Shown: positions 13,207 to 47,948, counted from the stretch's first letter. The stretch is 56,021 bases of DNA from Streptosporangiaceae bacterium (GCA_050699055.1 JBOHCT010000002.1:1-56021), one strand, 5' to 3'. Notes: a model not told the origin generated them from the letters alone. Translations and numbers: made by a program.

Positions 13207-13785
13207 CTAGAGCGTATTCGCGCGGCGGACCGCCTCGGCGGCGTCCTCGGCCCGCTGCCGGGCTTCGACGGTGAAACGCTCATCGAGGTCGCCTAGCTCC
13301 ACGTCGATCCGGACGAGCTCGGCGGCGGACCGCGCCGCCGCCTCCGCGAGAAGCACGGCGGTCCGCGCGTCGCCCACGAGGTTGGGGTTGCCCTCCCGGG
13401 CCAGCCGGGCGCCGAGCTCGGCCACCTCAGCGGCCACGCCCGCGATGCGCAGCGGGACCTCGGCCGCGCGTTCCAGGGACTCGCGAATGCGTGCGCCGGG
13501 TCCCGACCCACTCTCGCGGGGCAGCGCGTACGCGGCGAGGACGGCGCCGTACGCGTCGGCGTCGGCGTCGGCGAGCGGTCCCGCGGCGGCGCGCAGCTCG
13601 TCCGCGCGCCCGGCGACGTCCGCGGCGTCCCCGAGCCGCCCCTCGGAGTAGCGGGCCGCCATCGCGACCAGCCCGGCCGCCATCGCCGTGACGACCGCCG
13701 CGACGCACCCACCGCCGGGCGCCGGCTCCCGCGCGGCGACCGCGTCCAGGAACTCGCCGACGGTGGAGTCCAGGTACGACGTCAC
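13207..13785 (-). CDS. fchA: Cyclodeaminase/cyclohydrolase family protein (methenyl-THF cyclohydrolase-like, FTCD C-terminal type)
   Basis: 'VGEFLDAVAAREPAPGGGCVAAVVTAMAAGLVAMAARYS' is the family signature. It immediately follows fhs. Confidence 0.8.
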   Translation of the reverse strand: MTSYLDSTVGEFLDAVAAREPAPGGGCVAAVVTAMAAGLVAMAARYSEGRLGDAADVAGRADELRAAAGPLADADADAYGAVLAAYALPRESGSGPGARIRESLERAAEVPLRIAGVAAEVAELGARLAREGNPNLVGDARTAVLLAEAAARSAAELVRIDVELGDLDERFTVEARQRAEDAAEAVRRANTL

Positions 13786-15483: not shown

Positions 15484-15597
15484 CCTTGCCCTCCTCAGCC
15501 GCCGAGTGCTCGACATCCCGACCATCCACTCTCGCACCCGGGAGAATCTGTTCGCGAACCGTCCAGGGCAACGGGCACGCTGCCAGCGGAGCGTCCC

Positions 15598-17987: not shown

Positions 17988-17997
17988 ACGGTTCCCG

Positions 17998-19500
17998 TCA
18001 CTCTCGCACCTGGGCGGTCAGGGTCACGATGTTGGACGCCGTCCGGTGCGCGAACGGCGCGCAGCGGACGTCGAAACCCCGCCTGGTCCCGATGTTCTCC
18101 AGGAGCGGGCCGTTGACCCAGTTGACCACGGACCCGTCGTACTTCCCCGGTCCACGGAACCCCGTCTGGTACTGGTGGAGGTCGGTGACGAACAGGTCAT
18201 GGCACTGGAGTCGGCCGTAGGGATGCAGCAGCGGGAGGGTGTCGTCGAAGCTCGCCACCGCCCCGTTGTTCACGTGCATCCGTACGTCGCCGTCGGCCTC
18301 GAGCAGAGGTCGCAGCGCCTCGCCCGTCACCCGAGGGGCTACCTCGTACAGGTCGAGGCCCTCCAGCGGGACGTACCGCTCCTCCAGGCGCAGCGCCAGC
18401 CAGGCCTGCCGCCAGAAGCGGACGGCAGCCCCCACCGCCGGGAACCTGTCGGGCAGGGCCTCGCTCATCAGCTCGGGTCCGAGCCTGAGCAGCTTCGCGA
18501 CAAGCCCGGGGACCTCGTGGGACTGGACCGACACCTGCTCCGCGATCTCTTGGGCGGCCGTGGGAGAAAGGTAGGCCCGCACGTCGATTCGGTACGCCCG
18601 CCCGCCGATGTAGGCGATCTCGTCGCTCGGCAGGTTGTCGTAGACGTTGGAGATGTAGACGAGGAACGCCTTGTACCGCAGGAACCCCAGCGACGTGGTC
18701 GGCCGGGTCGCGTCGAGCACCAGCGAGCTGACGTGGGCGGCGTGGTGGGCGACCGCGGTCTGCGCCTTGCTGAGGACGTGCGGTGAGTAGTCGCCCATGA
18801 GGTAGTGCAGGCGCCGGTAGTAGTCGGCGCCGTGCGCGCGGTCGAGGGCGACGAACTCGTCCAGCCATGTCCTGGCCTGGTTGCCGTTGCCGACGCCGAG
18901 CTCCACCACGTAGAGCTCGGCCGGCAGCGCGTCACGGGCCGCCAGGTCGTCCCAGACCCGGAACAGGTCGAGGATGAGCTCGCGTACGGCGTCCCTGTTC
19001 CTGGCGTCGCTCTCGCCGCCGGGCAGCGCCTGTTCGTACCGCTGGCCGGTCGCCTCCTCCCACAGCGACAGCGCCTGCCAGTACAGGGCGTTGAACCCCC
19101 AGACGCAGCTGTCCACGCCCGGCCGCCACGTCTCCAGGTAGCGCCGCCCGAGGGCGTCGGGACTCTGGTTCCCCCGCAACACCTCCTGGGTCACGGCCTT
19201 GATGTCCACCTCCCCGCAGCGCCGAAGGTCGACGGCGACCTCCACCCCGTCCTCATGACCCGCCGCGTCCGTGCCGAGTTCCGGGGCCGCGCCGGGCGCG
19301 AGGATGCGGCGCAGGTCGATGACCGCACGGAAGTTGTTCTTGTACTGAATCCAGTCGCACACCACACGGAGGCGGGAAAGGTCGACGGCGTCCTCGCAAG
19401 GGTCCTCGCAGAGGGCCTGGACCACCGGCCCCAGCGAGGCGGTCACGTCCATCGGCTGGGATCCGCGCAGCCGCTTGGTAGGACGGACGTCAACGTGCAC
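17998..19500 (-). CDS. Large atypical class I SAM-dependent methyltransferase (500 aa)
   Basis: GTG start with a GGAGGGAG Shine-Dalgarno. Motif I 'VVELGVGNGNQ' and later 'VYISNVYDNLPSDE'. To my eye it distantly resembles the MidA/NDUFAF7 (DUF185) layout. Confidence 0.6.
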   Translation of the reverse strand: MHVDVRPTKRLRGSQPMDVTASLGPVVQALCEDPCEDAVDLSRLRVVCDWIQYKNNFRAVIDLRRILAPGAAPELGTDAAGHEDGVEVAVDLRRCGEVDIKAVTQEVLRGNQSPDALGRRYLETWRPGVDSCVWGFNALYWQALSLWEEATGQRYEQALPGGESDARNRDAVRELILDLFRVWDDLAARDALPAELYVVELGVGNGNQARTWLDEFVALDRAHGADYYRRLHYLMGDYSPHVLSKAQTAVAHHAAHVSSLVLDATRPTTSLGFLRYKAFLVYISNVYDNLPSDEIAYIGGRAYRIDVRAYLSPTAAQEIAEQVSVQSHEVPGLVAKLLRLGPELMSEALPDRFPAVGAAVRFWRQAWLALRLEERYVPLEGLDLYEVAPRVTGEALRPLLEADGDVRMHVNNGAVASFDDTLPLLHPYGRLQCHDLFVTDLHQYQTGFRGPGKYDGSVVNWVNGPLLENIGTRRGFDVRCAPFAHRTASNIVTLTAQVRE

Positions 19501-20527
19501 GGCTGCTCCCTCCGGCCGTGACGGCCTCGCCGGCCTCTCCCGCGCCTCCGGCGGCTTCGACCCGGGCGCGCCGGAGGATCTCGGGGACGGCCGTCTCGTG
19601 GCCGAACGACATCACGTGGATACCCGCGACGCCCGGGATCGCCTTCAGGCGCTCGATGGTCTCGACGCAGACGCGCATGCCCTCCTCGGCGACACGGTCG
19701 GCGGGCACGCCGCGGAGGCGACGGGCGACGCTGTCGGGGACGTACAGACCCGCGACCTTGGTGCTCATGTGGTCCAGCGCCCGAAGCGAACGGATCGGGC
19801 CCACCCCGGCGAGGATTCCGCAGCGTTCGTGCAGCCCGAGGTCGCGGACCTCGGCCATCCAGCGCTCGAACGCGTCCACGTCGAAGACGAACTGGGTCTG
19901 GGCGAACCGCGCCCCCGCCGCGACCTTCTTGGCCAGGCGCCGGGCACGGAAATGTACGGGCGGGGCGAACGGGTTCTCGACGGCGCCGACGAACACTTGC
20001 GGCGGTGGCCGGAGTCGGCTCCCCGACAGCAGCCTGCCCTGGTCCCGCATCGTGCGCGCCGCCCACACCAGCTGAACGCTGTCGAGGTCGAAGACCGGCT
20101 TCGCCCCAGGGTGGTCGCCGAACCGTGGATGGTCACCGGTGAGCAGCAGCGCGTTGGGGATGCCGAGGGCCGCGGCGGACAGCAGGTCGGACTGGAGTGC
20201 CAGCCTGTTCCTGTCGCGGCAGGTGAGCTGCATGACCGGCTCGACGCCCACCTCCAGCGCCAGCAGGCTGCCGGCCCAGCTTGACAGGCGCACGAACGCG
20301 CTCTGGTTGTCGGTGACGTTCGCGGCGTCCACCCACCCGCGGAGCGCCGCGGCCTTGCGGCGGATCACCTCGGCGTCCGAGCCGCGCGGGGGGCCGATCT
20401 CCGCGGTCACGACGAACCGTCCGGAGTCGAGGGCGGCGCGGAGCCGACCTGGCCCAGATGATCGCCCGGCACCGCCCGAGCCGTTACCGGGGGACCGCCC
20501 GTCGACCTCGTCCGGCACCAGCGTCAT
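19490..20527 (-). CDS. metF: Methylenetetrahydrofolate reductase (MetF)
   Basis: 'FVVTAEIGPPRG', 'ANVTDNQSAFVRLSS' and 'VMQLTCRDRNRLALQSDLLSAAALGIPNALLLTGDHP'. Confidence 0.9.
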   Translation of the reverse strand: MTLVPDEVDGRSPGNGSGGAGRSSGPGRLRAALDSGRFVVTAEIGPPRGSDAEVIRRKAAALRGWVDAANVTDNQSAFVRLSSWAGSLLALEVGVEPVMQLTCRDRNRLALQSDLLSAAALGIPNALLLTGDHPRFGDHPGAKPVFDLDSVQLVWAARTMRDQGRLLSGSRLRPPPQVFVGAVENPFAPPVHFRARRLAKKVAAGARFAQTQFVFDVDAFERWMAEVRDLGLHERCGILAGVGPIRSLRALDHMSTKVAGLYVPDSVARRLRGVPADRVAEEGMRVCVETIERLKAIPGVAGIHVMSFGHETAVPEILRRARVEAAGGAGEAGEAVTAGGSSRAR

Positions 20528-21102
20528 CGCGCCGCGACCTCGTCGTCGCGGAGGATGCTCGGAGGCGCCGCGAGGCCGCCGTCATCCGTCCACAGGCCCT
20601 CGTCCCTGCCCTGCCAGTAGTTCACCCAGGAACTCTGGCCCCACTGCCGGTGATCGATGGGACGCTGCAGCAGTGCCAGGTCGCCCGCGTGCCCTTCCGC
20701 CTCGGCGCGCTCGTAGGCGACCAGCCACACGCAGCGCATCTCCGGGTAGACCTCGCACGCCCCCGACTGCGACACGCCCCCACACGGTCCGTTGCGCAGC
20801 TGCTTCGGGCAGCTCATCGGACACGCGTATCCCGTCGCGGGCAGAGCGCACTGACCGCACATCTCGCAGCCGAACGCGGCGCCTTTGACGCCTTCCTCGG
20901 CTCTGGTAAAGATCTTGTACAGCCAAGGGGTCGCCTCGAGTCGCGCGGCCAGCTTCGCGTACAGCGCATTGGGCTCGAGAAAGCGATGCAGGCGGTACAT
21001 CGCGCGGGCGGACAAGGACGGCGTCCTCGGCCGCGGCCACGCCTGGCCGCCGGCGTCCTTGGCCCCCGGCTCGTCCGACCTCTGACGCCCGCGCTTCTTC
21101 AC
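20524..21102 (-). CDS. metV: MTHFR C-terminal-domain (MetV-like) Cys-rich subunit
   Basis: 'FGCEMCGQCALPATGYACPMSCPKQLRNGPCGG' is the signature of the MetV/MTHFR_C family. 4-nt overlaps on both sides. Confidence 0.85.
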   Translation of the reverse strand: MKKRGRQRSDEPGAKDAGGQAWPRPRTPSLSARAMYRLHRFLEPNALYAKLAARLEATPWLYKIFTRAEEGVKGAAFGCEMCGQCALPATGYACPMSCPKQLRNGPCGGVSQSGACEVYPEMRCVWLVAYERAEAEGHAGDLALLQRPIDHRQWGQSSWVNYWQGRDEGLWTDDGGLAAPPSILRDDEVAAR

Positions 21103-21377
21103 CGTCGACCCTCAGGAACGCGGGCCGGTCCGTCGGGGACGCTGAGGAACGACGAGCCGCGCAGGCGCGCGACGGTCTCGCGGAGCTGTCGGACCTCGCT
21201 GGTCAGCGCGTCGATGGTCTCCGTCTCGGCCCGGCTGCTCCTGCGCGCAGCCACCTCGCGCAAGAGCTCGACCTCCCGGGACAGCCCGTCCATGCCGTCC
21301 ATGCCCGCCGCCTCCGCACCGCCCGCCGGCGATCCGCAGTAAGGACACCTTGGCGCGCCGTTGCTCATGCTGTTCAT
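21099..21377 (-). CDS. Small CxxC zinc-ribbon-like / coiled-coil protein (about 92 aa), first gene of the C1/SAM operon
   Basis: 'MNSMSNGAPRCPYCGSP...' followed by heptad-like 'LSREVELLREVAARRSSRAETETIDALTSEVRQLRETVARL'. The stop overlaps the metV start. Start is 21377 or 21368. Confidence 0.5.
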   Translation of the reverse strand: MNSMSNGAPRCPYCGSPAGGAEAAGMDGMDGLSREVELLREVAARRSSRAETETIDALTSEVRQLRETVARLRGSSFLSVPDGPARVPEGRR

Positions 21378-21576
21378 GCCAACCCACTTCGACGACGTCC
21401 ATTGGGGACCGAACGAGACCGAACGAACGATCTGTCTCTCATCCTCCGCGACGGGCCGTCCGTGGTCATCGGGCCGGCCCACGAAGTTCGACGGACGTTC
21501 TTTGTGTTCGCGCCACAATTGGCCACGTCACAAACGCCGAAGGGCAACGGCTCAGAAAGCGAGTCGGATTATGGCG

Positions 21577-22632
21577 TCATTCAATCGAAACTGTCACCGG
21601 CCTGCTCTGCCACGTCCATCCCGGACAGACCGAGGAGAAACGCCCGACCGGTCCGCCGGCCGCTATCACCAAGAGGTCGTCCTCGCTCGTGACCGCCCGC
21701 ACAGGCCCGGCCACCGAGCCTGCCGACTTTTCGAGGACCTCGGCGGGAACGCGGGCGCCATCGGCGATGAACTTCTTCACCTCGGCCTTCGTCCACGACG
21801 CCTCCCGGAGGATGTCCCGATGCTCCTTGGCGAACGCGACCAGCTGCGGGGCGTTCCTCCGGCCCTCGACGCCGCTGCCGACCGCCGCGCTCGCGACGGT
21901 ATACGCCACCGCGGAAAGGATGGCCTCGGGGCTGCTGTCCTGCACACTGACCTGGCGCGGCGCCTCACAGCCCAGCATCGTGACCGCGCTCTGACCGGCG
22001 GTCATGCCGCGCTCGACATGCAGCGGCTCCCACGGAGAGTCCTCCTCGTCCTCCGCGATGCAGTACGAGTACTTTCCGGGATGGCCCAACGTCGCACGAT
22101 CCAAGACACCCGGCACGGCTTTCGCCACATTCTGGAGAATCAGCCGCAACGCCCTACCAATGGTGGCGTTGGCCCTTACGCCATGGCCGAAGACGTTGCC
22201 TCTCGCGTTCATTCCGATGCGCTCGCGAATCGGGCCACTCACGATCGCCAACGGCGCCGCTCCCTTCGTACTGCACGCCACGCCGTACAGCGCGAAGCGA
22301 TCGGCCAGCATCGCCTCGACCGCCGCGAGCACCACCGGGCCGTACTCCGGGCGGCATCCGGCCAGCACCGCGTTCGCGGCGACGTGACCGACCGTCGCCT
22401 CGACGTCGCCCGGCGGGACCGTCCCGACCACCGTGTCCGACGTCCTGCCCATGGCGGCCACCATCGCCGCCACGTTCTCAGCCGTCGGAGGCAGCACGGG
22501 CAATCCGTCGCAGAGATCCGACGCGAGGTATTCCTCCACAATCGCCGCCGCGTCAGTGCGCCGCGCGTCGCTCGCTCCGTCCACGGTCGGATCACCGTCA
22601 CTTTCATGATCGCGAACACTTTTCCACCCCAC
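21577..22632 (-). CDS. Uncharacterised conserved protein, paralog P1 of 3
   Basis: Shares 'DGLPVLPPT', 'LAGCRPEYGPVVLAA', 'STKGAAPL..VSGPIR', 'RANATIGRALRL', 'HPGKYSYC', 'EDEEDSPWEPLHV' with 22698-23756 and 25805-26929. Start is GTG 22632 or GTG 22584. Confidence 0.75.
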   Translation of the reverse strand: MGWKSVRDHESDGDPTVDGASDARRTDAAAIVEEYLASDLCDGLPVLPPTAENVAAMVAAMGRTSDTVVGTVPPGDVEATVGHVAANAVLAGCRPEYGPVVLAAVEAMLADRFALYGVACSTKGAAPLAIVSGPIRERIGMNARGNVFGHGVRANATIGRALRLILQNVAKAVPGVLDRATLGHPGKYSYCIAEDEEDSPWEPLHVERGMTAGQSAVTMLGCEAPRQVSVQDSSPEAILSAVAYTVASAAVGSGVEGRRNAPQLVAFAKEHRDILREASWTKAEVKKFIADGARVPAEVLEKSAGSVAGPVRAVTSEDDLLVIAAGGPVGRFSSVCPGWTWQSRPVTVSIE

Positions 22633-22656
22633 GGCGCTGAAAAGTGTTCGCGATCA
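22607..22656. repeat. Perfect 18-bp inverted repeat TGATCGCGAACACTTTTC-N14-GAAAAGTGTTCGCGATCA
   Basis: Read directly. It spans the P2-P1 intercistronic junction, and the annotated P1 GTG start lies in the loop. Confidence 0.9.
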
Positions 22657-22697
22657 CGGGAGGGGCCACCAGATGCACCGAGAGAGGGGGCGCGGTG

Positions 22698-23756
22698 TCA
22701 GGGGGCGCGGGCCTGGATCTGGCGCTGCCCGTGGCGCCCGTACTCGAGCGAAGGGGAGCCGTAGCACACCATGGACACGATCCCCGCGCCGCCGGCCGCC
22801 ACGATGGTGACGTCGTCCGCCGACCCGAAGAGGGGCACCCAGTCGTCCGGCTGATAGCCGTCGCGCTCGCGCAGGTGGGGGAGGCTGTCGGCACGGCCGG
22901 GCGGCTGGCCGGCTTCGAGGTCCACGGCGGGCCGGCCCGCGCGTTCGTACAGGAAGTCGCGAACGTCGGACTTGCTCCAACCGGCCTCCGCGACGGCGGC
23001 GCGATGGTCGGGGCCGAGGAGCACGAAAGCCTCGGACCGGCCCGTCATGCCGAAGCTCGCCAGCGTGCTCATGACGTCAGCGATGCGGGTGAGCGCGACC
23101 TCGGGATACTTGGGGCTGGCGACCGCGCTCACGTAACGGGGCGCCTCCGAGCCCATGACCGTGACCGTGCTGTCCTCCGGTGAATATCCCGACGAGACGT
23201 GCAGCGGCTCCCAGGGGCTGCCCTCCTCGTCCTCGCCGACCGTGTAGGTGTACTTGCCGGCGTGGCCGAAGCAGGAGTGGTCGGTCACCCCGGGCACCGA
23301 GTTGCCGACGTTGATCAACAGCAGCCTGATCGCCCGCCCGATCGTGGCGTTCGCGCGGGTGCCCGGGCCCAACACGTTCTTGCCGCAGTTCAGCACGATC
23401 CGCTGACGGATGGGCCCATTGACGACGACGAGTGGAGCGTTCCCCTTCGTGCTCGTCGCCAGATGGTCGAGGTGGAAACTCGACTCGAGCATGACCTCCA
23501 CGGCGGCCAGGACCACCGGCATGTACTCCGGCAGGCAGCCCGCCATCGTCGCGTTGACCGCGACATCACGCACGGCCGCTTCCTCGTACGTCGGAGGAAG
23601 CAGACCCACGGCCTCGTCCGCGTCCCTGCCGGAGGCGGCGATCATGGCCTCGGCGCGTTCCACGCTCGGTGGGACGACAGGAAGCCCGTCTGTCGCGCCC
23701 TGTTCGATGTAGCCGTCCACCATGGAGATGAAGTCACTCAAAGAGCCAGCAGCCAT
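22698..23756 (-). CDS. Uncharacterised conserved protein, paralog P2 of 3
   Basis: 352 aa with 'DGLPVVPPS', 'MAGCLPEYMPVVLAA', 'STKGNAPLVVVNGPIR', 'RANATIGRAIRL' and 'EDEEGSPWEPLHV'. Confidence 0.8.
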   Translation of the reverse strand: MAAGSLSDFISMVDGYIEQGATDGLPVVPPSVERAEAMIAASGRDADEAVGLLPPTYEEAAVRDVAVNATMAGCLPEYMPVVLAAVEVMLESSFHLDHLATSTKGNAPLVVVNGPIRQRIVLNCGKNVLGPGTRANATIGRAIRLLLINVGNSVPGVTDHSCFGHAGKYTYTVGEDEEGSPWEPLHVSSGYSPEDSTVTVMGSEAPRYVSAVASPKYPEVALTRIADVMSTLASFGMTGRSEAFVLLGPDHRAAVAEAGWSKSDVRDFLYERAGRPAVDLEAGQPPGRADSLPHLRERDGYQPDDWVPLFGSADDVTIVAAGGAGIVSMVCYGSPSLEYGRHGQRQIQARAP

Positions 23757-23828
23757 CCGCCTGTCGCTCCTTCTCCGCCTCTTGACCCCCCGTCGCGAGG
23801 CCGCGGGCGGGTCTTTACGCCCGGTGTC

Positions 23829-24362
23829 CTACTCGGCCCCGGTCGCGATCGACACCACCTGCGGCAGCGCCTCCTCGGCACGGGCCCACAGGCCGTCGTC
23901 GTCCAGCGACCCCAGCGGATGCTTGACCACCGCGAACCTGAACCCCTCGGCACCGCGCATCGTGGCGAGCTGCGCGGCGCCATGGCTGAACGGCTCCGTG
24001 CAGACGGCCACCCCGGGGATGCCGTGCCGCTCGATCTCTATCGCGTCGTGCAAACTGCACGCACTGCAGGAGCCTCAGTCACCGATGCCCGTCACGATCA
24101 GACGCGAGCGGGCCGCCAATCCCGCGATCAGTTCCGCCGGCGCCGGCTTCGACAGTGCCTCCTTGCCCATGGGTGCCAGCTCGCCTATCCCGTGCCGCTC
24201 CTTCAGCAACGTCCCGAGAAAGTCGAGAAAACGCGCGGCGTTCGGCTTGTAGTTGTCGAGCAGACCGACGGTGACACCCCGCAGGGAGTCCAGCCGAGGA
24301 GCGGACGTGACAGCGACCGCCTTCTTCGGCTTCGGACTGAAAAGCTCCTCATCCCATACCAT
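23829..24362 (-). CDS. UGSC-motif protein, putative selenoprotein (in-frame TGA at 24075-24077)
   Basis: Two same-frame ORFs (24075-24362 and 23829-24053) are joined through TGA plus 7 codons. The joined product aligns over its full length with the CGSC paralog at 26929-27477, and the TGA falls on that paralog's Cys. An AAGGA Shine-Dalgarno precedes the ATG at 24362. Confidence 0.6.
24043..24064 (-). promoter_or_regulatory. Candidate SECIS-like hairpin downstream of the TGA
   Basis: The mRNA reads GUG-CGUGC-AGUUU-GCACG-A-CGC. It starts 11 nt after the UGA and forms 8 bp with one bulged A and a G-U-containing apical loop. Confidence 0.4.
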
Positions 24363-24409
24363 GAGTTATCCTTCGGGTTTTCCTCAACCATTCCCACAGC
24401 CGCAGCTGC

Positions 24410-24631
24410 CTACTCGTCCGGATATGTCAGGTCGATGGAGTGCTCCGGCACCCCGAGAGCCTGCTGGAAGAACCTGCGCATCAGGTCCTTCGGCACCAGG
24501 CAGTCCGGGCATGCCTCGGATGTCGCGGAGATGCGGACGCCGACCCGCCCGCCGCCCTCGTCGACCTCGACCACGTAGCCGTCCGCGCCCAAGGATGACC
24601 GCAGCTCCCGCAGACCCGCCTCGTCGACCAT
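24410..24631 (-). CDS. Small NifU-like / CxxC protein (73 aa)
   Basis: Start ATG 24631 with a GGGAG Shine-Dalgarno. 'DGYVVEVDEGGGRVGVRISATSEACPDCLVPKDLM' resembles the NifU C-terminal (Nfu) layout. Confidence 0.45.
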   Translation of the reverse strand: MVDEAGLRELRSSLGADGYVVEVDEGGGRVGVRISATSEACPDCLVPKDLMRRFFQQALGVPEHSIDLTYPDE

Positions 24632-24683
24632 CGTCAGCTCCCTACCTCTCCGTGGCGGTCCCATCGCCAGGAGACCTCAACCC

Positions 24684-25808
24684 TCAACCCATGCCGTCAC
24701 CACTCTCGTGGATGACGACACCGCGGATGTTCTTCCCCTCCCGCATGTCGCGATAGCCGTCGTTGACCTGGTCGAGCCGGTACCGCCGGGTAATCAGCTC
24801 ATCGAGCTTGAGGTCACCGGATCGGTACAGACCCAGAAGCCTCGGGATGTCGTAGAGCGGGTTCGCCGCGCCGAAAAGAGCGCCCTGGACCCGCTTCTGC
24901 CAACCGGTCAGGGGACCGCCCGGCAGCTGTACGACCATCTCGCCCCGACTGCCGACCCCGGTGACGGTCACCTGGCTCGTCTTGCCGACGATGTCCACCC
25001 CGCGCCGCACGACCTCCGCGTTCATCTCGCCCACGGTCAGGATCGCGTGATCGGCGAGCTGTCCACGGGTGAGCTCGACGACCAGCTCGTGAGCCTCGTC
25101 GGGGTCGGACGTGGCGTGCGTGGCACCGAACTTCTGCGCCGACTCCAGCTTGAACGCCACCGGATCGACCGCGACGATGTTCTTCGCGCCCGCGTAGCTC
25201 GCTCCCTGAACGGCGTTGATGCCGACGCCCCCGACACCGAAGACCACGACGGTGTCGCCGGGCCGCACGCCCGCCGCGTAGACGGCGGAGCCCCACCCCG
25301 TCGTCACGCCGCAGCCGACCAGGGCAGCCACGTCGAACGGGATGTCCTCGCCCACCTTCACGCACGACCACTCGGAGAGCACGGCATACCGCGAGAACGT
25401 CCCGAGCACACAGAAGGCACCCAGATCCCGATCGCCTTCATGGAAGCGGTACGTGCCGTCGGTCAGACAGCCCACGGCGGCGTTCAGCCCCGCGTCGCAC
25501 ATGTTCTGATGGCCGGTCGAGCAGTAACGGCAGGTCCCGCAGACAGGGACGAACGAGCACACGATGTGGTCGCCCACCCCCACCCGCGTGACACCCGGAC
25601 CGACCGCCTCGACAACGCCGGCACCCTCGTGCCCGCCGACCATGGGCAGCCGGACCGGCGCGGCCCCGGTCCGCGCGTGCTCGTCGGAGTGGCACAGGCC
25701 GGCGGCCGCGAACCGAACGAGCACCTCCCGTGCCTTCGGCGGATCGAGGGACAGCTCGGTCACGTCCCACTGGCCAGGTCGGTGCAGGACCGCCGCCCGA
25801 GTCTTCAC
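24684..25808 (-). CDS. Zn-dependent alcohol dehydrogenase (class III / NDMA-dependent-ADH-like), paralog 1
   Basis: GTG start at 25808 overlaps the P3 stop (GTGA). 'GLCHSDEH', 'GHEGAGVVEAVG', 'CGTCRYCSTGHQNMC', 'VFGVGGVGINAVQGA' and the C-terminal 'GYRDMREGKNIRGVVIH'. Confidence 0.9.
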   Translation of the reverse strand: MKTRAAVLHRPGQWDVTELSLDPPKAREVLVRFAAAGLCHSDEHARTGAAPVRLPMVGGHEGAGVVEAVGPGVTRVGVGDHIVCSFVPVCGTCRYCSTGHQNMCDAGLNAAVGCLTDGTYRFHEGDRDLGAFCVLGTFSRYAVLSEWSCVKVGEDIPFDVAALVGCGVTTGWGSAVYAAGVRPGDTVVVFGVGGVGINAVQGASYAGAKNIVAVDPVAFKLESAQKFGATHATSDPDEAHELVVELTRGQLADHAILTVGEMNAEVVRRGVDIVGKTSQVTVTGVGSRGEMVVQLPGGPLTGWQKRVQGALFGAANPLYDIPRLLGLYRSGDLKLDELITRRYRLDQVNDGYRDMREGKNIRGVVIHESGDGMG

Positions 25809-26929
25809 GTCGCCACTCCCCAATCTGCGGATCCCGCCGCGGTTCCCGCTGCTCGGGCCGCGGCACGGTCGCTCGAGACCTCCTCCACGGGGATCGCGGT
25901 CCCCGACCACTCACCGAAGACCCGCACGACCATCGAGATGGCCGCGTTCTTGGCCCCGGCGACGACGATCGGCACGTGCCGGGGCGAGGGGAGAATGGGC
26001 GAGAAATCGTCCGCGTCGACGTCCGACGGCTCGCCGGCGTCCGTACCGGTCGCTTTCTTGTGCTGTGCGGCCTTACCGGCCCGTTCGAGGGCGGTGAAGG
26101 TGCATCCGCAGTGCTCCATGAACCAGGCCTGGACGTCGGCCTTGGCGTACCCGGCGCCGGCGAGAAGCTGGGCATGCTCGGGGCTCAGGACCACCGCACA
26201 CGAGGTGTCCCGGAAGATCAGCGCGCCCGTGCGCGAGATCGTGTCAGCGAAGTCCCACAGAACCTGCTCGGCGTCGTGGGTGTGCCGGTTGTCGACGAAC
26301 TCACAGGTACGGGTCAGCGTCGCCGACACCGCGCTCGAGCCCGACGGCTGCCCCCCGTCCACGCACAGCGGCTCCCACGGACTCTCCTCCTCGTTCTCGG
26401 CGACACAGACCGACCAACGCCCAGGGAGACCCTGTGTGGCCTGCTCGAAGACGTGCGGACGGACGCCGAAGGCGTTGCGGACGATGAGCCCGACGGCGCG
26501 GGCGACGGTGGCGTTCGCCCGGAACCCCGGCCCGAACACCCCGCCGCGGCTGTTGAACCCGAGGCCGGCGCGGATCGGACCGTTCACCACGATGAGCGGC
26601 GACGGGCCGCTGGTACTCTGCCACCCACCTCCCTCCGCCGCCCGCTCGCGCATCAGCGCCTCGAACGCGGCCAACACCACAGGGAAGTACTCGGGCCGAC
26701 AGCCCGCCATCGCGGCGTTGATGGCCGCCAGCTCGACCGTGCACTCGCCGTTCAGATGTGTGAGACGGCCGATGACCTCGTCGGGAGCGCGGCTCGTGCG
26801 ACCCAGGAAGCGGTCGACGAGCGGCTGTGAGGCGGGGGCGAGCGGCAGCCCGTCCGACCAGTCCTGCTCGTAGCAGTATTCGATCACTCGCTGGGCGGCG
26901 TCCGGGTCGAGGTCGGAAGCCTCCGCCAT
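25805..26929 (-). CDS. Uncharacterised conserved protein, paralog P3 of 3
   Basis: Start ATG 26929 overlaps the CGSC gene stop (ATGA). 'SDGLPLAPAS', 'MAGCRPEYFPVVLAA', 'PLIVVNGPIR', 'RANATVARAVGL' and 'ENEEESPWEPLCV'. The ORF-track N-terminal extension is rejected. Confidence 0.8.
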   Translation of the reverse strand: MAEASDLDPDAAQRVIEYCYEQDWSDGLPLAPASQPLVDRFLGRTSRAPDEVIGRLTHLNGECTVELAAINAAMAGCRPEYFPVVLAAFEALMRERAAEGGGWQSTSGPSPLIVVNGPIRAGLGFNSRGGVFGPGFRANATVARAVGLIVRNAFGVRPHVFEQATQGLPGRWSVCVAENEEESPWEPLCVDGGQPSGSSAVSATLTRTCEFVDNRHTHDAEQVLWDFADTISRTGALIFRDTSCAVVLSPEHAQLLAGAGYAKADVQAWFMEHCGCTFTALERAGKAAQHKKATGTDAGEPSDVDADDFSPILPSPRHVPIVVAGAKNAAISMVVRVFGEWSGTAIPVEEVSSDRAAARAAGTAAGSADWGVAT

Positions 26930-27477
26930 CAGGCAGCCCCTCGCTGCTCCACGGCGACCATGAGGGATACGACGTCGGGCAGGGCACGCCCGGCACGCTC
27001 GCGCACCTCGTCCGGGGTGAGCACGGCGACCGGGTGTGGCGTCGTAGCGTAGCGGTAGCCTGGCGCGCCCTGGACGCGGGCCATCGCGTCGCTGGTCGCC
27101 GTGAAGGCATCGCTGCAGACCACCGCGCTGGGGATGCCGCGCCCTTCGAAGAGCAGACCGTCCGCGACCGCCGCCGCGCTGCACGACCCGCAGTCGCCCA
27201 CACCCGTGACGACGACATCACACTGGCCAGCCATCTCCTCGACGACCTCGTCGGGGGCGGGGGCGGTGATCGGGCCCGTCTTCCTCCGGGTCACCACGTC
27301 CGCGGCGCCCTCGCGGTCCACCAGCAGCCGACCCAGCTCCTCGAGAAAGAGATCGGCGTTCCGTTTGGTGTTGACCAGCAGCCCCACCGTCGCTCCGCGA
27401 AGGTCCGGGCGCCGCGACGCCTGCACCGCCCGCTTGCTGCTGACCTTTCCCGTTGGATCCAGAACCGCGTTCGCCAT
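26929..27477 (-). CDS. CGSC-motif protein (Cys paralog of the UGSC protein)
   Basis: Start ATG 27477 lies 9 nt after a perfect AAGGAG. '...RGATVGLLVNTKRNADLFLEELG...CDVVVTGVGDCGSCSAAAV...GRGIPSAVVCSDAF'. Confidence 0.8.
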   Translation of the reverse strand: MANAVLDPTGKVSSKRAVQASRRPDLRGATVGLLVNTKRNADLFLEELGRLLVDREGAADVVTRRKTGPITAPAPDEVVEEMAGQCDVVVTGVGDCGSCSAAAVADGLLFEGRGIPSAVVCSDAFTATSDAMARVQGAPGYRYATTPHPVAVLTPDEVRERAGRALPDVVSLMVAVEQRGAA

Positions 27478-27530
27478 CTCGGGCTTCTCCTTACCTAGAG
27501 CGCCCATCCGTACGGACGATCCGTTGGACC

Positions 27531-27613: not shown

Positions 27614-28540
27614 TCAGCTCACCTGGGGAAGCACCTCGCGGCCGAGCAGGCGGATGTGCTCCAGGTCGGCGACGTCGTAGATGTGAAAGTAGACGGTGTC
27701 GATGCCCAGTGAGGAAAGCTTGCCGAGGTGGCCGACCACGTCCTCTGGCACGCCGACCACGCCCTGGCGCAGGAGCCTGGCGGCTGGTTCCCCGACCGCG
27801 GTGGCGCGCCGCTCGGCCTCGGCCCGTGTCGCGCCAAGGCAGACCGGGAGCAGGGTCGACAGTCTGACGGTGGCGGGGTCCCGCCCGACCTCCGCGCAGA
27901 TACGAAGGAAGCCCGCGATGTGCTTCCCCCGATCTTCGCCGAAGGCCGCGTTGAACTCATCGGCGAACCGGGCGGCGAGCGTGGGTGTCCGACGCGGGCC
28001 CGAGCCCCCGATGACCAGCGGCGGGCGGGGCTGCTGGGCGGGCCTCGGGAAGTTGGCGCACCCGTCGATGCGGTAGTGCTCGCCCTCGAAGGTGAAACGC
28101 TCGCCCGGAGACGTCGCCCACAGCCCCGAGATGACGGCCAGCTGCTCCTCGAGGCGGTCGAAGCGCTCACCCGTGGGCGGAAAGGGCATGCCGAAGGACT
28201 CGTGCTCGCGCGCATACCAGCCCGCGCCGATGCCGAGCTCGACGCGTCCGCCGCTCATCGCGTCGACTGTGGCGACGCTCACGGCGAGCGGGCCGGGGTG
28301 CCGGAAGGTCGCGGCGGTCACCAAGGTGCCGAGCCGCACCCGTGTGGTCTCTCTCGCCAGCCCGGCGAGCGTCGTCCAGGAGTCGGTCGGCAGGTAGGAG
28401 GTGTCCGCGGCGTCGACACCAAGATAGTGGTCGGAGCGGAAGAAGGCGTCGAAGCCGGCCTCCTCGGTGGCCCGCGCCAGGGCCAGGACCTGCTCGTAGG
28501 TCGCCCCGTGGCGCGGCTCCATCAGTACCCGTAGCCTCAT
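27614..28540 (-). CDS. LLM-class F420-dependent oxidoreductase (luciferase-like)
   Basis: Start ATG 28540, 'MRLRVLMEPRHGATYEQVLALARATEEAGFDAFFRSDHY' and 'GRVELGIGAGW'. Confidence 0.85.
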   Translation of the reverse strand: MRLRVLMEPRHGATYEQVLALARATEEAGFDAFFRSDHYLGVDAADTSYLPTDSWTTLAGLARETTRVRLGTLVTAATFRHPGPLAVSVATVDAMSGGRVELGIGAGWYAREHESFGMPFPPTGERFDRLEEQLAVISGLWATSPGERFTFEGEHYRIDGCANFPRPAQQPRPPLVIGGSGPRRTPTLAARFADEFNAAFGEDRGKHIAGFLRICAEVGRDPATVRLSTLLPVCLGATRAEAERRATAVGEPAARLLRQGVVGVPEDVVGHLGKLSSLGIDTVYFHIYDVADLEHIRLLGREVLPQVS

Positions 28541-28606
28541 GCTGGACTCCTCGTCGTCGCTGGCGGGTAGCCGGTCGCCGACCGCCATGCCGTTACTCGG
28601 TGGCGC

Positions 28607-29713
28607 TTAGCGCGCGCTGGTGGTGGCCCGGGTGGGCTCGTGGTCTTCCTCCTGCCCCGCAGGAAAATGACACGCCACGGCATGGTCGTCCCCGAGGATG
28701 CGCAGCGGCGGCTCCTCGACCGCGCAGCGCTCCTGCGCGCGGGGGCAACGGGTGCGAAATCGGCACCCGCTCGGCGGGTCGATCGGGGAGGGGGGCTCCC
28801 CACTGATCGCCCCCTCCGCTCTCGCCCTCGACGAGGTGGGGTCGGGATCGGGGATGGAGGCGAGGAGCGCCAGCGTGTAGGGGTGCAGGGGTCCCCGGTA
28901 GAGAGACTCGGCGGGACCGATCTCGCAGAGCTTGCCGAGGTACATGACCGCGACCCGGTCGCTCACCTGCTTGACGAGCGTGAGGTCGTGCGCGATGAAC
29001 AGGTAGGCGAGACCGAGTTCGGTACGTAGCTCCTCGAAGAGGTTGAGCACCTGCGCCTGGATCAGGACGTCGAGCGACGAGACCGGCTCGTCGCAGACGA
29101 TGAGGTCCGGGCCGAGGGTGAGCGCGCGGGCGATGGCGACCCGTTGGCACTGGCCACCCGAGAGCGCCCGAGGCCGGCGGCTGCCGTAGGTGCGCGGGTC
29201 GAGGCCGACGAGGTCGAGCACCGTGTCCACCCGGCGCCGGCGTTCCGCCCTGCTACCCACCTTGTAGGCGACAAGCGGCTCCTCGACGATCTGCGACACC
29301 CGCCACTTCGGGTTGAGCGAACCGAACGGGTCCTGAAAGACCATCTGCATGTGACGACGGGCCTCGAGGAGCTGACGCCGGCCCAGTTTGACGAGGTCCT
29401 TTCCACGGAAGAACACCTCACCCGACTTCGGCTTCGGAGCCTGCAACAACGACCTCGCCAGCGTCGACTTCCCGGAGCCCGTCTCGCCGACGACGCCCAC
29501 GGTCTCGCCGGACCGTACGTCGAAGGACACGTCGGAGACGGCCTGCACGACGCCGCCCTTGACGCCTCCGCTGCCGCGGACGACGAACTCCTGCACGACG
29601 TGCCGGGCTTCGAGCAAGGCCTCGCCCCGCAGCGCCGGGTGAGCGGCGGCGCCTCGCTCTTTGTCGGGCTCTCTCTCGCCCCGCTCGTTCTCGTTGGACG
29701 CTCTAGGCTTCAC
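28607..29713 (-). CDS. Peptide/nickel ABC transporter ATP-binding protein (DppF/OppF-like)
   Basis: Walker A 'GETGSGKST', signature 'LSGGQCQR', Walker B 'LIVCDEPVSSLD', and an oligopeptide C-terminal domain with 'PPSGCRFRTRCP'. The GTG start overlaps the dppD-like stop. Confidence 0.85.
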   Translation of the reverse strand: MKPRASNENERGEREPDKERGAAAHPALRGEALLEARHVVQEFVVRGSGGVKGGVVQAVSDVSFDVRSGETVGVVGETGSGKSTLARSLLQAPKPKSGEVFFRGKDLVKLGRRQLLEARRHMQMVFQDPFGSLNPKWRVSQIVEEPLVAYKVGSRAERRRRVDTVLDLVGLDPRTYGSRRPRALSGGQCQRVAIARALTLGPDLIVCDEPVSSLDVLIQAQVLNLFEELRTELGLAYLFIAHDLTLVKQVSDRVAVMYLGKLCEIGPAESLYRGPLHPYTLALLASIPDPDPTSSRARAEGAISGEPPSPIDPPSGCRFRTRCPRAQERCAVEEPPLRILGDDHAVACHFPAGQEEDHEPTRATTSAR

Positions 29714-30858: not shown

Positions 30859-30920
30859 GGCACGGCTCCCCGACATCCCGAGGGTCGACTCGGCCGAAGG
30901 TTTCCGCGAACGGTTGATAC

Positions 30921-46640: not shown

Positions 46641-46656
46641 GTGACGGTACGTGACG

Positions 46657-47877: not shown

Positions 47878-47948
47878 GGCTGCCTCCTCGGTCCGTCACC
47901 CACGACGCGGCACGACCGCAAACCATGTGGGCCATGCATGACTCCAAC

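What the first reader, a model, noticed from the sequence alone, without database searches (positions are those of the whole stretch)
21577..27507. Uncharacterised 6-kb module: three paralogs of a ~350-aa protein, two xGSC redox proteins, a NifU-like CxxC protein and a Zn-ADH
The minus-strand gene order is CGSC (26929-27477), P3 (25805-26929), ADH (24684-25808), a NifU-like gene (24410-24631), UGSC (23829-24362), P2 (22698-23756) and P1 (21577-22632). The first three junctions are ATGA/GTGA overlaps, which indicates translational coupling. P1, P2 and P3 share strongly conserved blocks that I cannot assign to any characterised family. These blocks are DGLP(V/L)xPP, (M/L)AGC(R/L)PEYxPVVLAA, a P(L/S)x(I/V)V(N/S)GPIR block (preceded by STKG in P1 and P2), RANAT(I/V)(G/A)RA, and E(D/N)EE(D/E/G)SPWEPL. 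Each xGSC protein sits directly upstream of a P paralog. That pattern suggests a small redox carrier paired with a large catalytic partner, duplicated and diverged in place. The Sec/Cys-x-x-Cys carrier, the extra CxxC protein and the dehydrogenase together look like a thiol/selenol-based oxidoreductase system with an unknown substrate.
Basis: partly seen in the sequence, partly recalled or inferred. Interest (0 to 1): 0.85.

Follow-up and report, generated by a model that had tools for sequence, protein, structure and literature searches.

The report
Uncharacterised selenoprotein reductase module (UGSC plus partner)
This gene cluster encodes two copies of a widespread, never-characterised enzyme pair: a small selenocysteine/cysteine redox protein (UGSC family) and a large partner protein with no known relatives. 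Comparative evidence points to a thioredoxin-type-driven reductase whose substrate is unknown.

Summary
On the minus strand lie CGSC, P3, a Zn-ADH, a 73-aa CxxC protein, a TGA-containing UGSC gene, P2 and P1.

- **xGSC proteins.** Both belong to the catalogued UGSC (seleno)protein family (PF24696/NF041046), whose function is unknown. The TGA is a genuine Sec codon. It is TGA in 66 of 75 P-linked homologues and is followed by a conserved, covarying SECIS-like hairpin.
- **P1-P3.** They belong to a very large family (6226 clusters at 50% identity). It has no Pfam, NCBIfam or PDB relative.
- **Linkage.** 66 of 84 P loci carry UGSC. 75 of 75 judgeable CGSC loci carry P directly downstream.
- **Fusions.** P occurs fused to UGSC, to ferredoxin:thioredoxin-reductase-like domains, to Redoxin-like CxxC domains and to the small CxxC domain.
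- **Electron supply.** Cultured carriers place trxB/trxA in the same operon.
- **Remote homology.** UGSC aligns in register with the Sec region of GrdB/PrdB.

Best reading: P is the catalytic subunit (Cys74, Cys172) of a thiol/selenol-dependent reductase. UGSC is its dedicated Sec-x-x-Cys partner, and the small CxxC protein and the ADH are actinobacterial accessories. The substrate is unknown. High interest.

The parts
27614..28588 (-). F420-dependent LLM-class oxidoreductase (TIGR03560 family). Probable accessory gene, 106 nt upstream of CGSC.
   Evidence: TIGR03560 at 7.8e-83, PF00296 at 8e-50. Orthologues at 63-75% identity lie near UGSC-P in L002, L003 and 5 metagenome loci.
26929..27477 (-). 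CGSC: Cys-type UGSC-family protein (182 aa), active site GD-C96-GS-C99.
   Evidence: PF24696 at 9.8e-62; NF041046 at 160 bits against a cut-off of 125. The AF2 model (pLDDT 89.8) is a flavodoxin-like alpha/beta fold with C96 at the N-cap of helix 97-112. Of 80 homologous loci, 75 of the 75 that can be judged have a P gene directly downstream.
25805..26929 (-). P3: 374-aa member of the uncurated P family. Its start overlaps the CGSC stop by 1 nt (TGATG).
   Evidence: No Pfam, NCBIfam or PDB match. Orthologues at 70-77% identity are abundant in soil actinobacterial metagenomes.
24684..25808 (-). Zn-dependent alcohol dehydrogenase of the TIGR03989 (NDMA-dependent ADH, Rxyl_3153) subfamily. Its GTG start overlaps the P3 stop (GTGA).
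   Evidence: TIGR03989 at 4.1e-156, 520 bits against a cut-off of 440. Junction read. Orthologues at 60-80% identity sit directly next to UGSC/P in L001, L003, L004 and about 40 of 80 metagenome loci.
24410..24631 (-). Small 73-aa CxxC protein (motif C-x-D-C-L-V-P), possibly Nfu/NifU-C-like. Third conserved component of the actinobacterial version.
   Evidence: No HMM hit for the window protein itself. It is conserved in L002 and L004. It lies directly after P in 33 of 44 judgeable metagenome loci. It occurs fused to P (P0273, P0355, P0364, P0367, P0395), to UGSC (Arthrobacter) and as small-UGSC-P (P0289, weak PF01106 match at 0.008).
23829..24362 (-). UGSC: selenocysteine-type UGSC-family protein (177 aa when read through), active site GD-U96-GS-C99.
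   Evidence: In-frame TGA. PF24696 at 4.8e-52. The orthologue in L004 has the same TGA. Local match to the GrdB Sec region at E 0.0013.
24075..24077 (-). Sec codon (TGA) of the UGSC gene.
   Evidence: The aligned codon is TGA in 66 of 75 P-linked UGSC genes and is never TAA or TAG.
24044..24064 (-). SECIS-like hairpin 13 nt downstream of the TGA (core stem 24061-24047, apical loop containing GU).
   Evidence: The 55-sequence alignment A5 gives 80.8% of cells paired, against 19-50% when partners are slid. Pair 21-27 switches between CG (33 sequences) and GC (20 sequences). Loop positions G23 and U24 are conserved.
22698..23756 (-). P2: 352-aa P-family paralogue. It has Cys74 but lacks the second conserved Cys (Thr at position 172).
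   Evidence: The AF2 model has pLDDT 83.4 and pTM 0.87. An orthologue, P0003, is 83% identical.
22608..22655 (.). Perfect 17-bp inverted repeat (GATCGCGAACACTTTTC, 14-nt spacer, GAAAAGTGTTCGCGATC) between P2 and P1. It forms a stable intercistronic hairpin.
   Evidence: RNA fold of -38.9 kcal/mol, z-score -8.3.
21577..22632 (-). P1: P-family paralogue (351 aa from the GTG at 22632; more likely 335 aa from the GTG at 22584). It has both Cys74 and Cys172.
   Evidence: P0002. An orthologue at 74% identity follows a P2-like gene in L004. P-P tandems and P-P fusions are common.

Best explanation
The module encodes two versions of a thiol/selenol-dependent reductase that has not been characterised: CGSC+P3 and UGSC+P2+P1.

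**P, the catalytic subunit (inferred).** P binds the substrate. It carries a nearly invariant Cys74 in the AGC motif, placed at the N-cap of a helix, and a second conserved Cys172. It also has conserved Asp, Tyr, Asn, Arg and Glu residues that would suit an anionic, probably carboxylate, substrate.

**UGSC, the redox partner.** UGSC is a flavodoxin-like protein that binds P. Its Sec/Cys96-x-x-Cys99 centre also sits at a helix N-cap and is remotely homologous to the Sec site of GrdB/PrdB.

**Proposed cycle (inferred).** During turnover, a disulfide or selenenylsulfide forms between P and UGSC or within UGSC. Lineage-specific thiol relays then re-reduce it:
- here, the small CxxC protein;
- elsewhere, TrxA/TrxB, fused FTR-B-like domains or fused Redoxin-like domains.

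**Other actinobacterial components.** The TIGR03989 Zn-ADH, and probably the F420 LLM enzyme, act on the same unknown substrate or product. P2 and P1 probably form a heterodimer served by one UGSC.

**What is shown and what is inferred.** Shown: family memberships, Sec decoding signals, synteny, fusions and trx linkage. Inferred: direction of electron flow, roles of individual residues, and the substrate class.
For: **UGSC identity and Sec.**
- UGSC family membership.
- TGA conserved in 66 of 75 homologues, plus a SECIS-like hairpin with covariation.

**UGSC-P linkage.**
- UGSC is present in 66 of 84 P loci from more than 8 phyla, in both gene orders.
- P lies directly downstream in all 75 judgeable CGSC loci.
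- The pair is also found in haloarchaea.

**Rosetta-stone fusions among the best 150 P representatives.**
- 35 UGSC-P and 3 P-UGSC.
- 11 P-P.
- 4 P-small, 1 small-P, 1 small-P-P and 1 small-UGSC-P.
- FeThRed_B fused in P0356 (2.2e-21) and P0357 (1.4e-16).
- Redoxin/AhpC-TSA CxxC domains fused in P0382, P0387, P0398 and P0399.

**Dedicated thioredoxin systems.**
- Arthrobacter: trxB-trxA-P-UGSC::small.
- Roseovarius: P-UGSC-trxB.
- Variovorax: trxB...P-UGSC.

**Remote homology.** Matches to the Sec segment of GrdB/GrdH/GrdF/PrdB are in register. 85 of 120 members hit PrdB, and UGSC residues 70-165 align to GrdB 320-416.

**Structure and conservation.**
- Both nucleophiles sit at helix N-termini in confident AF2 models.
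- Cys74 is conserved in 97 of 99 diverse P sequences and Cys172 in about 88%.

**Accessories.** The ADH and the small gene are conserved neighbours in Actinobacteria.
Against: - There is no biochemical evidence for any member, and no substrate is indicated. Neighbours vary and give only a loose hint of organic-acid metabolism: TctC, CoA-transferase III, crotonase, SDR, LLM, TPP enzymes.
- 18 of 84 P loci have no UGSC within 8 kb.
- Cys74 is replaced by Ala in P0370.
- A Vibrio fusion has a UGSC domain without Cys or Sec.
- The similarity to GrdB/PrdB is weak per sequence (E 1e-4 to 0.04) and covers only about 90 residues.
- The best fold match of P is a non-redox Fe-S hydro-lyase, though the match is weak.
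- No complex model could be computed.
- Sec machinery could not be checked, because the contig is only 56 kb and carries no tRNA-Sec.
Confidence: 0.6

Rival explanations
1. A glycine/D-proline-reductase-like enzyme in the strict sense. P would be a proenzyme that cleaves itself at Gly73|Cys74, producing a Cys-derived pyruvoyl group as in GrdE/PrdA. The pyruvoyl group would bind an amine substrate. The Sec of UGSC (a 'mini protein B') would attack the alpha-carbon and reductively cleave a C-N or C-X bond, leaving a Sec-Cys selenenylsulfide that thiol relays reduce.
For: - UGSC matches PrdB/GrdB/GrdH/GrdF around the Sec site, in register.
- The Ala-Gly-Cys motif in P is near-invariant.
- A thiol-reductant requirement matches the trx, FTR and Redoxin linkage.
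- A peptide ABC transporter lies upstream in the window.
Against: - P gives no match to the GrdE/PrdA family (PF09338) or to any Grd/Prd model, even at E<=10, in 121 members.
- No GrdA, GrdC or GrdD homologue was found among the window ORFs scanned.
- In the model, Cys74 lies in a loop between two helices, not between strands as in known pyruvoyl enzymes.
- P0370 has Ala at position 74.
- Neighbourhoods are dominated by organic-acid and CoA genes rather than amino-acid genes.
Confidence: 0.15
2. A two-subunit Fe-S hydro-lyase or similar non-redox enzyme. A [4Fe-4S] cluster would be held between the subunits by Cys74 of P and U/C96 plus C99 of UGSC, leaving one iron free to bind a hydroxy-acid or dicarboxylate substrate. 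The Nfu-like small protein would deliver the cluster.
For: - The best Foldseek matches of the P model are class I fumarate hydratase alpha subunits (7xky_A, E 3.6e-4, probability 0.85). MmgE/PrpD and Toblerone-fold hydrolases rank lower.
- The three ligands would be Cys74, U/C96 and C99.
- An Nfu-like partner is present.
- Neighbours include TctC, crotonase, MmgE/PrpD and AcnX.
Against: - TM-scores are only 0.24-0.27 with rmsd 15-18 Å.
- I know of no natural Fe-S cluster with a Sec ligand, whereas Sec is strongly preferred here (66 of 75).
- Fusions to Redoxin-type CxxC domains and operonic trxA/trxB point to disulfide chemistry.
- UGSS variants lack Cys99.
Confidence: 0.08
3. A protein-selenol/thiol-dependent aldehyde (C1) oxidation system. 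The Sec/Cys of UGSC, presented by P, would form a hemi(seleno)thioacetal with formaldehyde or another aldehyde. The linked Zn-ADH would oxidise the adduct, as class III ADHs do with glutathione or mycothiol adducts. The acyl or formyl group would then be released or passed into the neighbouring folate pathway.
For: - The orthologous ADH is the most constant neighbour in Actinobacteria and often overlaps UGSC or P.
- After TIGR03989, its next best matches are S-(hydroxymethyl)glutathione and S-(hydroxymethyl)mycothiol dehydrogenases.
- MTHFR, FTHFS, cyclohydrolase, MetE-like and MetK genes follow the module on the same strand.
Against: - The ADH and the C1 genes are absent from most non-actinobacterial loci.
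- The C1 cluster is not linked in the orthologous locus L004.
- This reading does not explain the trxB, FTR-B or Redoxin linkage.
Confidence: 0.08
4. The TGA in the 23829-24362 gene is a true stop, making it a pseudogene or two short ORFs. Only the Cys-type module would then be functional.
For: - Gene callers split the gene into 95-aa and 74-aa ORFs.
- No Sec machinery or tRNA-Sec lies on the 56-kb contig.
Against: - The same codon is TGA in 66 of 75 homologues across phyla and is never TAA or TAG.
- The reading frame and family match continue through it.
- A conserved SECIS-like hairpin follows, with a covarying pair.
- The family is an established predicted selenoprotein family (PMC2398784).
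Confidence: 0.03

Closest known systems
UGSC family (seleno)protein (PF24696 / NF041046; 'UGSC-containing protein' of Zhang & Gladyshev, PMC1976440, PMC2398784)
   Same: Both xGSC proteins pass the curated family models and carry the U/C-G-S-C motif. As in the literature, most members use Sec.
   Different: The family is catalogued only as a predicted selenoprotein of unknown function, thought to be 'Trx-like'. Here the fold is predicted to be flavodoxin-like. Here it is also shown to have an obligate partner family (P), a small CxxC partner, and links to thioredoxin/FTR modules. The 2008 paper mentions a 'UGSC/Unknown_1' fusion that may be P. I could not verify this because the figure is held only as an image.
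Substrate-specific 'protein B' of glycine/sarcosine/betaine reductase and D-proline reductase (GrdB/GrdF/GrdH + GrdE/GrdG/GrdI; PrdB + PrdA)
   Same: Both have a Sec-x-x-Cys selenoprotein working with a larger, non-seleno substrate-binding partner encoded next to it, and both depend on thiol reductants. UGSC aligns in register with the Sec-containing C-terminal segment of these proteins.
   Different: UGSC is only about 180 aa, against 240-435 aa, and scores far below every family cut-off. P is unrelated to the GrdE/PrdA pyruvoyl proproteins by sequence. No GrdA or GrdCD is present. The hosts are aerobic soil and aquatic bacteria and haloarchaea, not Stickland fermenters.
Thioredoxin-dependent Cys/Sec reductases such as methionine sulfoxide reductases MsrA/MsrB
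   Same: There is a catalytic Cys/Sec plus a resolving Cys. Regeneration is by Trx/TrxR. Both Sec and Cys forms occur, and natural fusions to Trx-like domains exist.
   Different: There is no sequence or fold relationship. Here the Sec sits on a separate dedicated subunit rather than in the catalytic protein, and the substrate is unknown.
Ferredoxin:thioredoxin reductase catalytic subunit (FeThRed_B, PF02943)
   Same: Some P-family proteins carry this domain in the same polypeptide (P0356, P0357). This implies that a disulfide on P/UGSC is reduced through a 4Fe-4S/disulfide centre.
   Different: The window itself has no FTR-like domain. Its candidate relay is the 73-aa CxxC protein.

Membership tests
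UGSC family (PF24696 / NF041046) | Whole-protein HMM score above the curated cut-off | tested here: met
   CGSC scores 208.5 bits (Pfam) and 159.8 bits (NCBIfam). UGSC scores 177 and 135 bits. The cut-offs are 25 and 125.
UGSC family (PF24696 / NF041046) | U/C-G-S-C active-site motif; Sec form encoded by an in-frame TGA with a downstream SECIS | tested here: met
   The motifs are GD-C-GSC and GD-U-GSC. The TGA is at 24077-24075. The hairpin is conserved and covaries in 55 genes.
Thioredoxin fold (proposed for UGSC in PMC2398784) | Trx-like beta-alpha-beta-alpha-beta-beta-alpha topology with CxxC after beta1 | tested here: not met
   The AF2 model (pLDDT 89.8) is a five-stranded alternating beta/alpha flavodoxin/Rossmann-like fold. 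The best Foldseek hits are lumazine synthase, RpiB and PTS IIB, not thioredoxins.
Glycine/betaine/sarcosine/D-proline reductase selenoprotein B (TIGR01917, TIGR01918, TIGR04483, NF040794/5) | Whole-protein HMM score above the cut-off | tested here: not met
   Scores are 12-21 bits against cut-offs of 65-800. Only UGSC residues ~70-165 align to GrdB 320-416.
Glycine/betaine/sarcosine/D-proline reductase selenoprotein B (TIGR01917, TIGR01918, TIGR04483, NF040794/5) | Partner is a GrdE/PrdA-type pyruvoyl proprotein (PF09338) | tested here: not met
   P1-P3 and 121 family members give no hit to it at E<=10.
Glycine/betaine/sarcosine/D-proline reductase selenoprotein B (TIGR01917, TIGR01918, TIGR04483, NF040794/5) | Self-cleavage of the partner at an X-Cys bond to form a pyruvoyl group | not testable with these tools
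   This needs the intact protein mass or carbonyl labelling. The conserved AGC motif is only compatible with it.
Glycine/betaine/sarcosine/D-proline reductase selenoprotein B (TIGR01917, TIGR01918, TIGR04483, NF040794/5) | Accompanying GrdA selenoprotein A and GrdC/GrdD (or PrdC/D/E) | tested here: not met
   None appear among about 30 window ORFs scanned with Pfam/NCBIfam or in the annotated related loci.
NifU C-terminal / Nfu domain (PF01106), for the 73-aa protein | HMM match and CxxC motif | tested here: inconclusive
   The window protein has no hit at E<=10. The homologous domain of the fusion P0289 matches PF01106 over positions 1-66 of 67, but only at E 0.008 and 16.7 bits against a cut-off of 27. 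The CxxC motif is conserved.
NDMA-dependent alcohol dehydrogenase subfamily TIGR03989 | HMM score above the cut-off, with Zn-ADH domains | tested here: met
   519.9 bits against a cut-off of 440; PF08240 and PF00107 are both present. A tightly bound nicotinamide cofactor cannot be tested here.
Class I fumarate hydratase / Fe-S hydro-lyase alpha subunit (for P) | Fold match plus three conserved cluster-ligand cysteines | tested here: not met
   Foldseek gives E 3.6e-4 but TM-scores of 0.24-0.27. No PF05681 hit. Only Cys74 and Cys172 are conserved in P.

The most novel reading that the evidence does not exclude
UGSC·P is a new class of selenoenzyme. It would be one of the most abundant selenoprotein systems in soil, freshwater and marine bacteria, and it is also present in haloarchaea. 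In this reading, a Sec carried on a dedicated mini 'protein B' subunit performs Grd/Prd-like nucleophilic chemistry on carbon, meaning reductive C-X cleavage or carriage of a substrate fragment. It would do so on a substrate held by a catalytic subunit with a previously unseen fold. Electrons would come from thioredoxin, FTR-like or Nfu-like modules. This would bring Stickland-type selenium chemistry into aerobic organic-acid or C1 catabolism.
Probability: 0.2. Interest if true: 0.92.

Novelty: categorically new. Interest (0 to 1): 0.8.

Why it matters
- **An old open question.** UGSC-containing proteins have been listed since 2007-2008 among the most abundant predicted selenoproteins in aquatic metagenomes: about 8% of selenoprotein genes in the Global Ocean Sampling (GOS) marine metagenome dataset (PMC9402790). 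Reviews up to 2026 still list them among selenoproteins whose functions remain largely uncharacterised (PMC13188914).
- **What this analysis adds.**
  - An obligate partner: a family of more than 6000 clusters with no Pfam, NCBIfam or PDB entry.
  - A third small CxxC component.
  - Defined electron-supply modules.
- **The question becomes testable.** Cys-type operons (CGSC-P3-small with the ADH) can be expressed without Sec machinery. Cultured carriers with trxB/trxA operons are available: Arthrobacter sp. ERGS1:01, Roseovarius sp. THAF8 and Variovorax sp. SRS16.
- **If confirmed.** It would define a new selenoenzyme class and a new protein fold family. It would also improve annotation, because Sec-type genes are currently split at the TGA.

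Tried and rejected
- **Sequence families for P.** Pfam and NCBIfam gave no hit at E<=10, for the three paralogues or for 121 relatives. PDB sequence searches with single sequences and with profiles found nothing for P, UGSC or the small protein.
- **Structure searches.** The P2 model gave only weak, low-TM matches against the PDB (class I fumarase alpha, Toblerone-fold hydrolases, PurM-like). The CGSC model gave only generic flavodoxin/Rossmann-like matches. I therefore rejected any fold-based functional assignment.
- **Fusion hunt among close relatives.** A concatenated CGSC+P3 query found no fusions among the nearest P3 relatives. Fusions appeared only in the exhaustive representative search.
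- **'Unknown_1' of PMC2398784.** I could not confirm that it equals P. The figure is held as an image and the sequence file is truncated.
- **A universal third partner.** None exists. Neighbour clustering over 84 loci gave only lineage-specific accessories.
- **RNA and Sec machinery.** Rfam and tRNA scans of the window found nothing. A single-sequence fold of the post-TGA region was not exceptional (z +1.4). The SECIS evidence comes from the comparative alignment instead.

Full report
**What is in the window.** The window is a 56-kb, about 69% GC contig, judged actinobacterial from its closest homologues. Between 21577 and 27507, on the minus strand, lie seven genes:
- CGSC (26929-27477)
- P3 (25805-26929)
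- a Zn-ADH (24684-25808)
- a 73-aa CxxC protein (24410-24631)
- a UGSC gene interrupted by one in-frame TGA (23829-24362; TGA at 24077-24075)
- P2 (22698-23756)
- P1 (21577-22632)

Two details need correcting. First, only two junctions overlap: CGSC/P3 by 1 nt (TGATG) and P3/ADH by 4 nt (GTGA). Second, the proposed P1 start lies inside a perfect 17-bp inverted repeat (22608-22655). That repeat folds into a very stable intercistronic hairpin of -38.9 kcal/mol, z -8.3. The real start is probably the GTG at 22584.

**The xGSC proteins are a known family, and the TGA is a Sec codon.** Both proteins pass the curated UGSC family models, PF24696 and NF041046. The literature treats this family as a predicted selenoprotein of unknown function that is abundant in aquatic metagenomes (PMC1976440, PMC2398784, PMC9402790, PMC13188914).

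I collected 75 UGSC genes that sit next to P genes, in loci from more than eight phyla. The active-site codon is TGA in 66, Cys in 9, and never TAA or TAG. The orthologous Streptosporangiales locus L004 has the same TGA.

Downstream of the TGA, 55 distinct genes, including the window's, share a hairpin. Its core stem lies 16-21 nt after the U of UGA, and the apical loop has a conserved G-U. In the comparative count:
- 80.8% of cells pair, against 19-50% when the partners are slid.
- One pair switches between C-G (33 sequences) and G-C (20 sequences).

Part of the conservation reflects coding constraint, but the covarying pair involves third codon positions. Cys-type genes keep the stem less well. 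I conclude that the window's UGSC gene is a genuine selenoprotein gene. The Sec machinery itself could not be checked on this contig.

**The P family is large and has no known relatives.**
- A profile of P1-P3 retrieved the maximum number of candidates in the 5.8-billion-protein database. 7988 passed E<=1e-3, and every hit that carries a source name is 'hypothetical protein'.
- An exhaustive search of 1.84 billion representatives found 6226 clusters at E<=1e-3 and 1822 at E<=1e-30.
- No Pfam or NCBIfam model matches any of 121 members, even at E<=10.
- No PDB sequence matches.
- The AF2 model of P2 is confident (pLDDT 83, pTM 0.87). Its best PDB matches are weak: class I fumarate hydratase alpha at E 3.6e-4 but TM 0.24-0.27, then Toblerone-fold amidohydrolases.

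Across 102 diverse sequences, the conserved residues (P2 numbering) are D23-G24, A72-G73-C74, Y78, G114-P115, N136, R141, E175 and G190. A second cysteine, C172, is present in about 88%. P1 and P3 have it; P2 has Thr. Cys74 sits between helices 62-72 and 76-90, at the N-cap of the second helix, in a region with pLDDT above 90.

**UGSC and P are a conserved pair.**
- *Starting from P.* A scan of one genome per species gave at least 599 matches. In the 80 loci kept plus four contexts fetched earlier, 66 of 84 carry a UGSC gene. Of 104 P genes, 62 have UGSC within 400 nt on the same strand, in either order.
- *Starting from UGSC.* Of 80 metagenomic CGSC-like loci, all 75 that can be judged have a P gene directly downstream.
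- *Taxonomic spread.* Hosts include Methylomirabilota, Dehalococcoidia, Burkholderiales, Binatia, Nitrospinota, Acidobacteriota, Mycobacterium, Alphaproteobacteria and haloarchaea.
- *P tandems.* P genes are often in tandem and share one UGSC, as P2-P1 do here.
- *Exceptions.* Eighteen loci have P without UGSC.

**Fusions and operon partners indicate thiol/selenol redox chemistry.** Among the best 150 P representatives:
- 35 are UGSC-P fusions. Many called proteins begin exactly after the Sec position, so these are Sec-type.
- 3 are P-UGSC fusions that end at the Sec position.
- 11 are P-P fusions.
- 4 are P-small fusions. There is also one each of small-P, small-P-P and small-UGSC-P (P0289).
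- Two carry a ferredoxin:thioredoxin reductase catalytic domain (P0356 at 2.2e-21; P0357 at 1.4e-16).
- At least four carry an N-terminal Redoxin/AhpC-TSA domain with a CxxC motif.

In RefSeq plasmids of cultured strains, the pair sits with a dedicated thioredoxin system:
- Arthrobacter sp. ERGS1:01: trxB-trxA-P-UGSC, with trxA overlapping P and UGSC fused to the small domain.
- Roseovarius sp. THAF8: P-UGSC-trxB.
- Variovorax sp. SRS16: trxB-TctC-SDR-P-UGSC.

The small 73-aa protein is therefore a real component. It directly follows P in 33 of 44 judgeable actinobacterial loci, and it is conserved with a C-x-D-C-L-V-P motif. Its Nfu/NifU-like nature is only weakly supported.

**UGSC resembles the Sec site of selenoprotein B.** Of 120 UGSC members, 85 give weak hits to PrdB and 17 to GrdB. 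In diverse Sec-type members, UGSC residues ~70-165 align with positions ~320-416 of the GrdB, GrdH and GrdF models, each 431-435 positions long, with the Sec region in register (E 1e-4 to 0.04).

The AF2 model of CGSC (pLDDT 89.8) is a flavodoxin-like three-layer alpha/beta fold, with Cys96 (the Sec position) at the N-terminus of helix 97-112. It is not a thioredoxin fold, and it has no specific PDB relative.

The family fails every membership criterion for Grd/Prd proteins except this local similarity, and P is not detectably related to GrdE/PrdA.

**Actinobacterial context.** The TIGR03989-type Zn-ADH is the most constant extra neighbour. Orthologues at 60-80% identity lie directly beside UGSC/P in L001, L003, L004 and about 40 of 80 metagenome loci. 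The usual order is ADH-CGSC-P-small. An F420-dependent LLM oxidoreductase (27614-28588 in the window) recurs less often.

The window juxtaposes two old modules, each with its own orthologues elsewhere:
- CGSC-P3
- ADH-small-UGSC-P2-P1, which is exactly the arrangement in L004

It is therefore not a recent in-place duplication.

Outside Actinobacteria, the neighbours are TctC-type binding proteins, SDRs, crotonases, CoA-transferases III, TPP enzymes, TauD and MmgE/PrpD. This is a loose hint of organic-acid catabolism, and there is no universal third gene.

**Most likely mechanism (confidence about 0.6).** P is the substrate-binding catalytic subunit of a thiol/selenol-dependent reductase, and UGSC is its dedicated Sec/Cys-x-x-Cys partner. 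A disulfide or selenenylsulfide forms during turnover. It is re-reduced through lineage-specific relays: the small CxxC protein here, and TrxA/TrxB, FTR-like or Redoxin-like modules elsewhere.
- *Shown:* family identities, Sec signals, synteny, fusions and trx linkage.
- *Inferred:* the direction of electron flow, the roles of Cys74/Cys172/Sec96, and an anionic substrate.

**Rivals.**
- A strict Grd/Prd-like mechanism with a Cys74-derived pyruvoyl group (0.15).
- An inter-subunit Fe-S hydro-lyase (0.08).
- A protein-selenol-dependent aldehyde/C1 oxidation coupled to the ADH (0.08).
- A pseudogene reading of the TGA (0.03).

**Novelty and verdict.** One component (UGSC) is catalogued but uncharacterised. 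I found no description of the partner family, the three-component architecture or the redox-module linkage in the literature searched. The system lies outside every characterised enzyme system that I could test it against. Interest 0.8.

Noticed in passing
window 22608-22655: A perfect 17-bp inverted repeat (GATCGCGAACACTTTTC, 14-nt spacer, then its reverse complement) lies between P2 and P1. As RNA it folds at -38.9 kcal/mol (z -8.3). It is unique in the window and absent from the orthologous locus L004, where the two P genes overlap. It could be an mRNA processing or stability element, or an operator.
   Followed up: partly
window 13207-21102 (minus strand): Directly downstream of the module, on the same strand, is a one-carbon/SAM-cycle cluster: DUF5981 + MTHFR (MetVF type), MetE-like, MetK, formate-THF ligase and an FTCD_C cyclodeaminase-like gene. 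The linkage to UGSC-P is not conserved in L004.
   Followed up: partly
window 17998-19500 (minus strand): A 500-aa protein embedded in the C1 cluster has no Pfam or NCBIfam family. It gives only faint SAM-methyltransferase-like signals (Methyltransf_28 at E 0.016; a VELGVGNG motif).
   Followed up: no
window 30323-30458: A 9-nt tandem repeat (CCAGCGGCA, 15 copies, 95% matches) lies inside an ABC-transporter ATPase gene (29710-31728, minus strand). It encodes an (Ala-Ala-Gly)n linker.
   Followed up: no
window 46657-51940; L002; L089: A Peripla_BP_6 binding protein, a FAD_oxidored protein and an aconitase X lie about 20 kb from the module. The same three families flank UGSC-P in metagenome locus L002. 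AcnX also flanks a UGSC-P fusion gene on a Vibrio europaeus plasmid. This may be a wider functional neighbourhood.
   Followed up: partly
window 36033-38072, 42888-44066, 45498-46718: The window holds further methyl-metabolism and redox genes: a homocysteine S-methyltransferase/MTHFR fusion next to a PucR-type regulator, a second Zn-ADH and a second Meth_synt_2 protein.
   Followed up: no
L013, L020, L024, L035, L048, L060 (UGSC genes): One UGSC subfamily has the motif GH-U-G-S-S-TPWT and lacks the +3 cysteine, so its Sec cannot form the intramolecular Sec-x-x-Cys bond. The adjacent P proteins keep Cys74 and Cys172. A Vibrio UGSC-P fusion (L089 5344-7029) has neither Cys nor Sec at this site.
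   Followed up: partly
L085 6054-6869 (Arthrobacter sp. ERGS1:01 plasmid): The gene RefSeq annotates as 'UGSC family (seleno)protein' is in fact a UGSC::small-CxxC-domain fusion (271 aa). It lies in the operon trxB-trxA-P-UGSC, in a cultured strain suitable for experiments.
   Followed up: yes
window 21099-21518 (minus strand): A 139-aa ORF lies between P1 and the DUF5981/MTHFR genes. It has only a sub-threshold DUF6779 match (E 7.6e-4), and its role is unknown.
   Followed up: no
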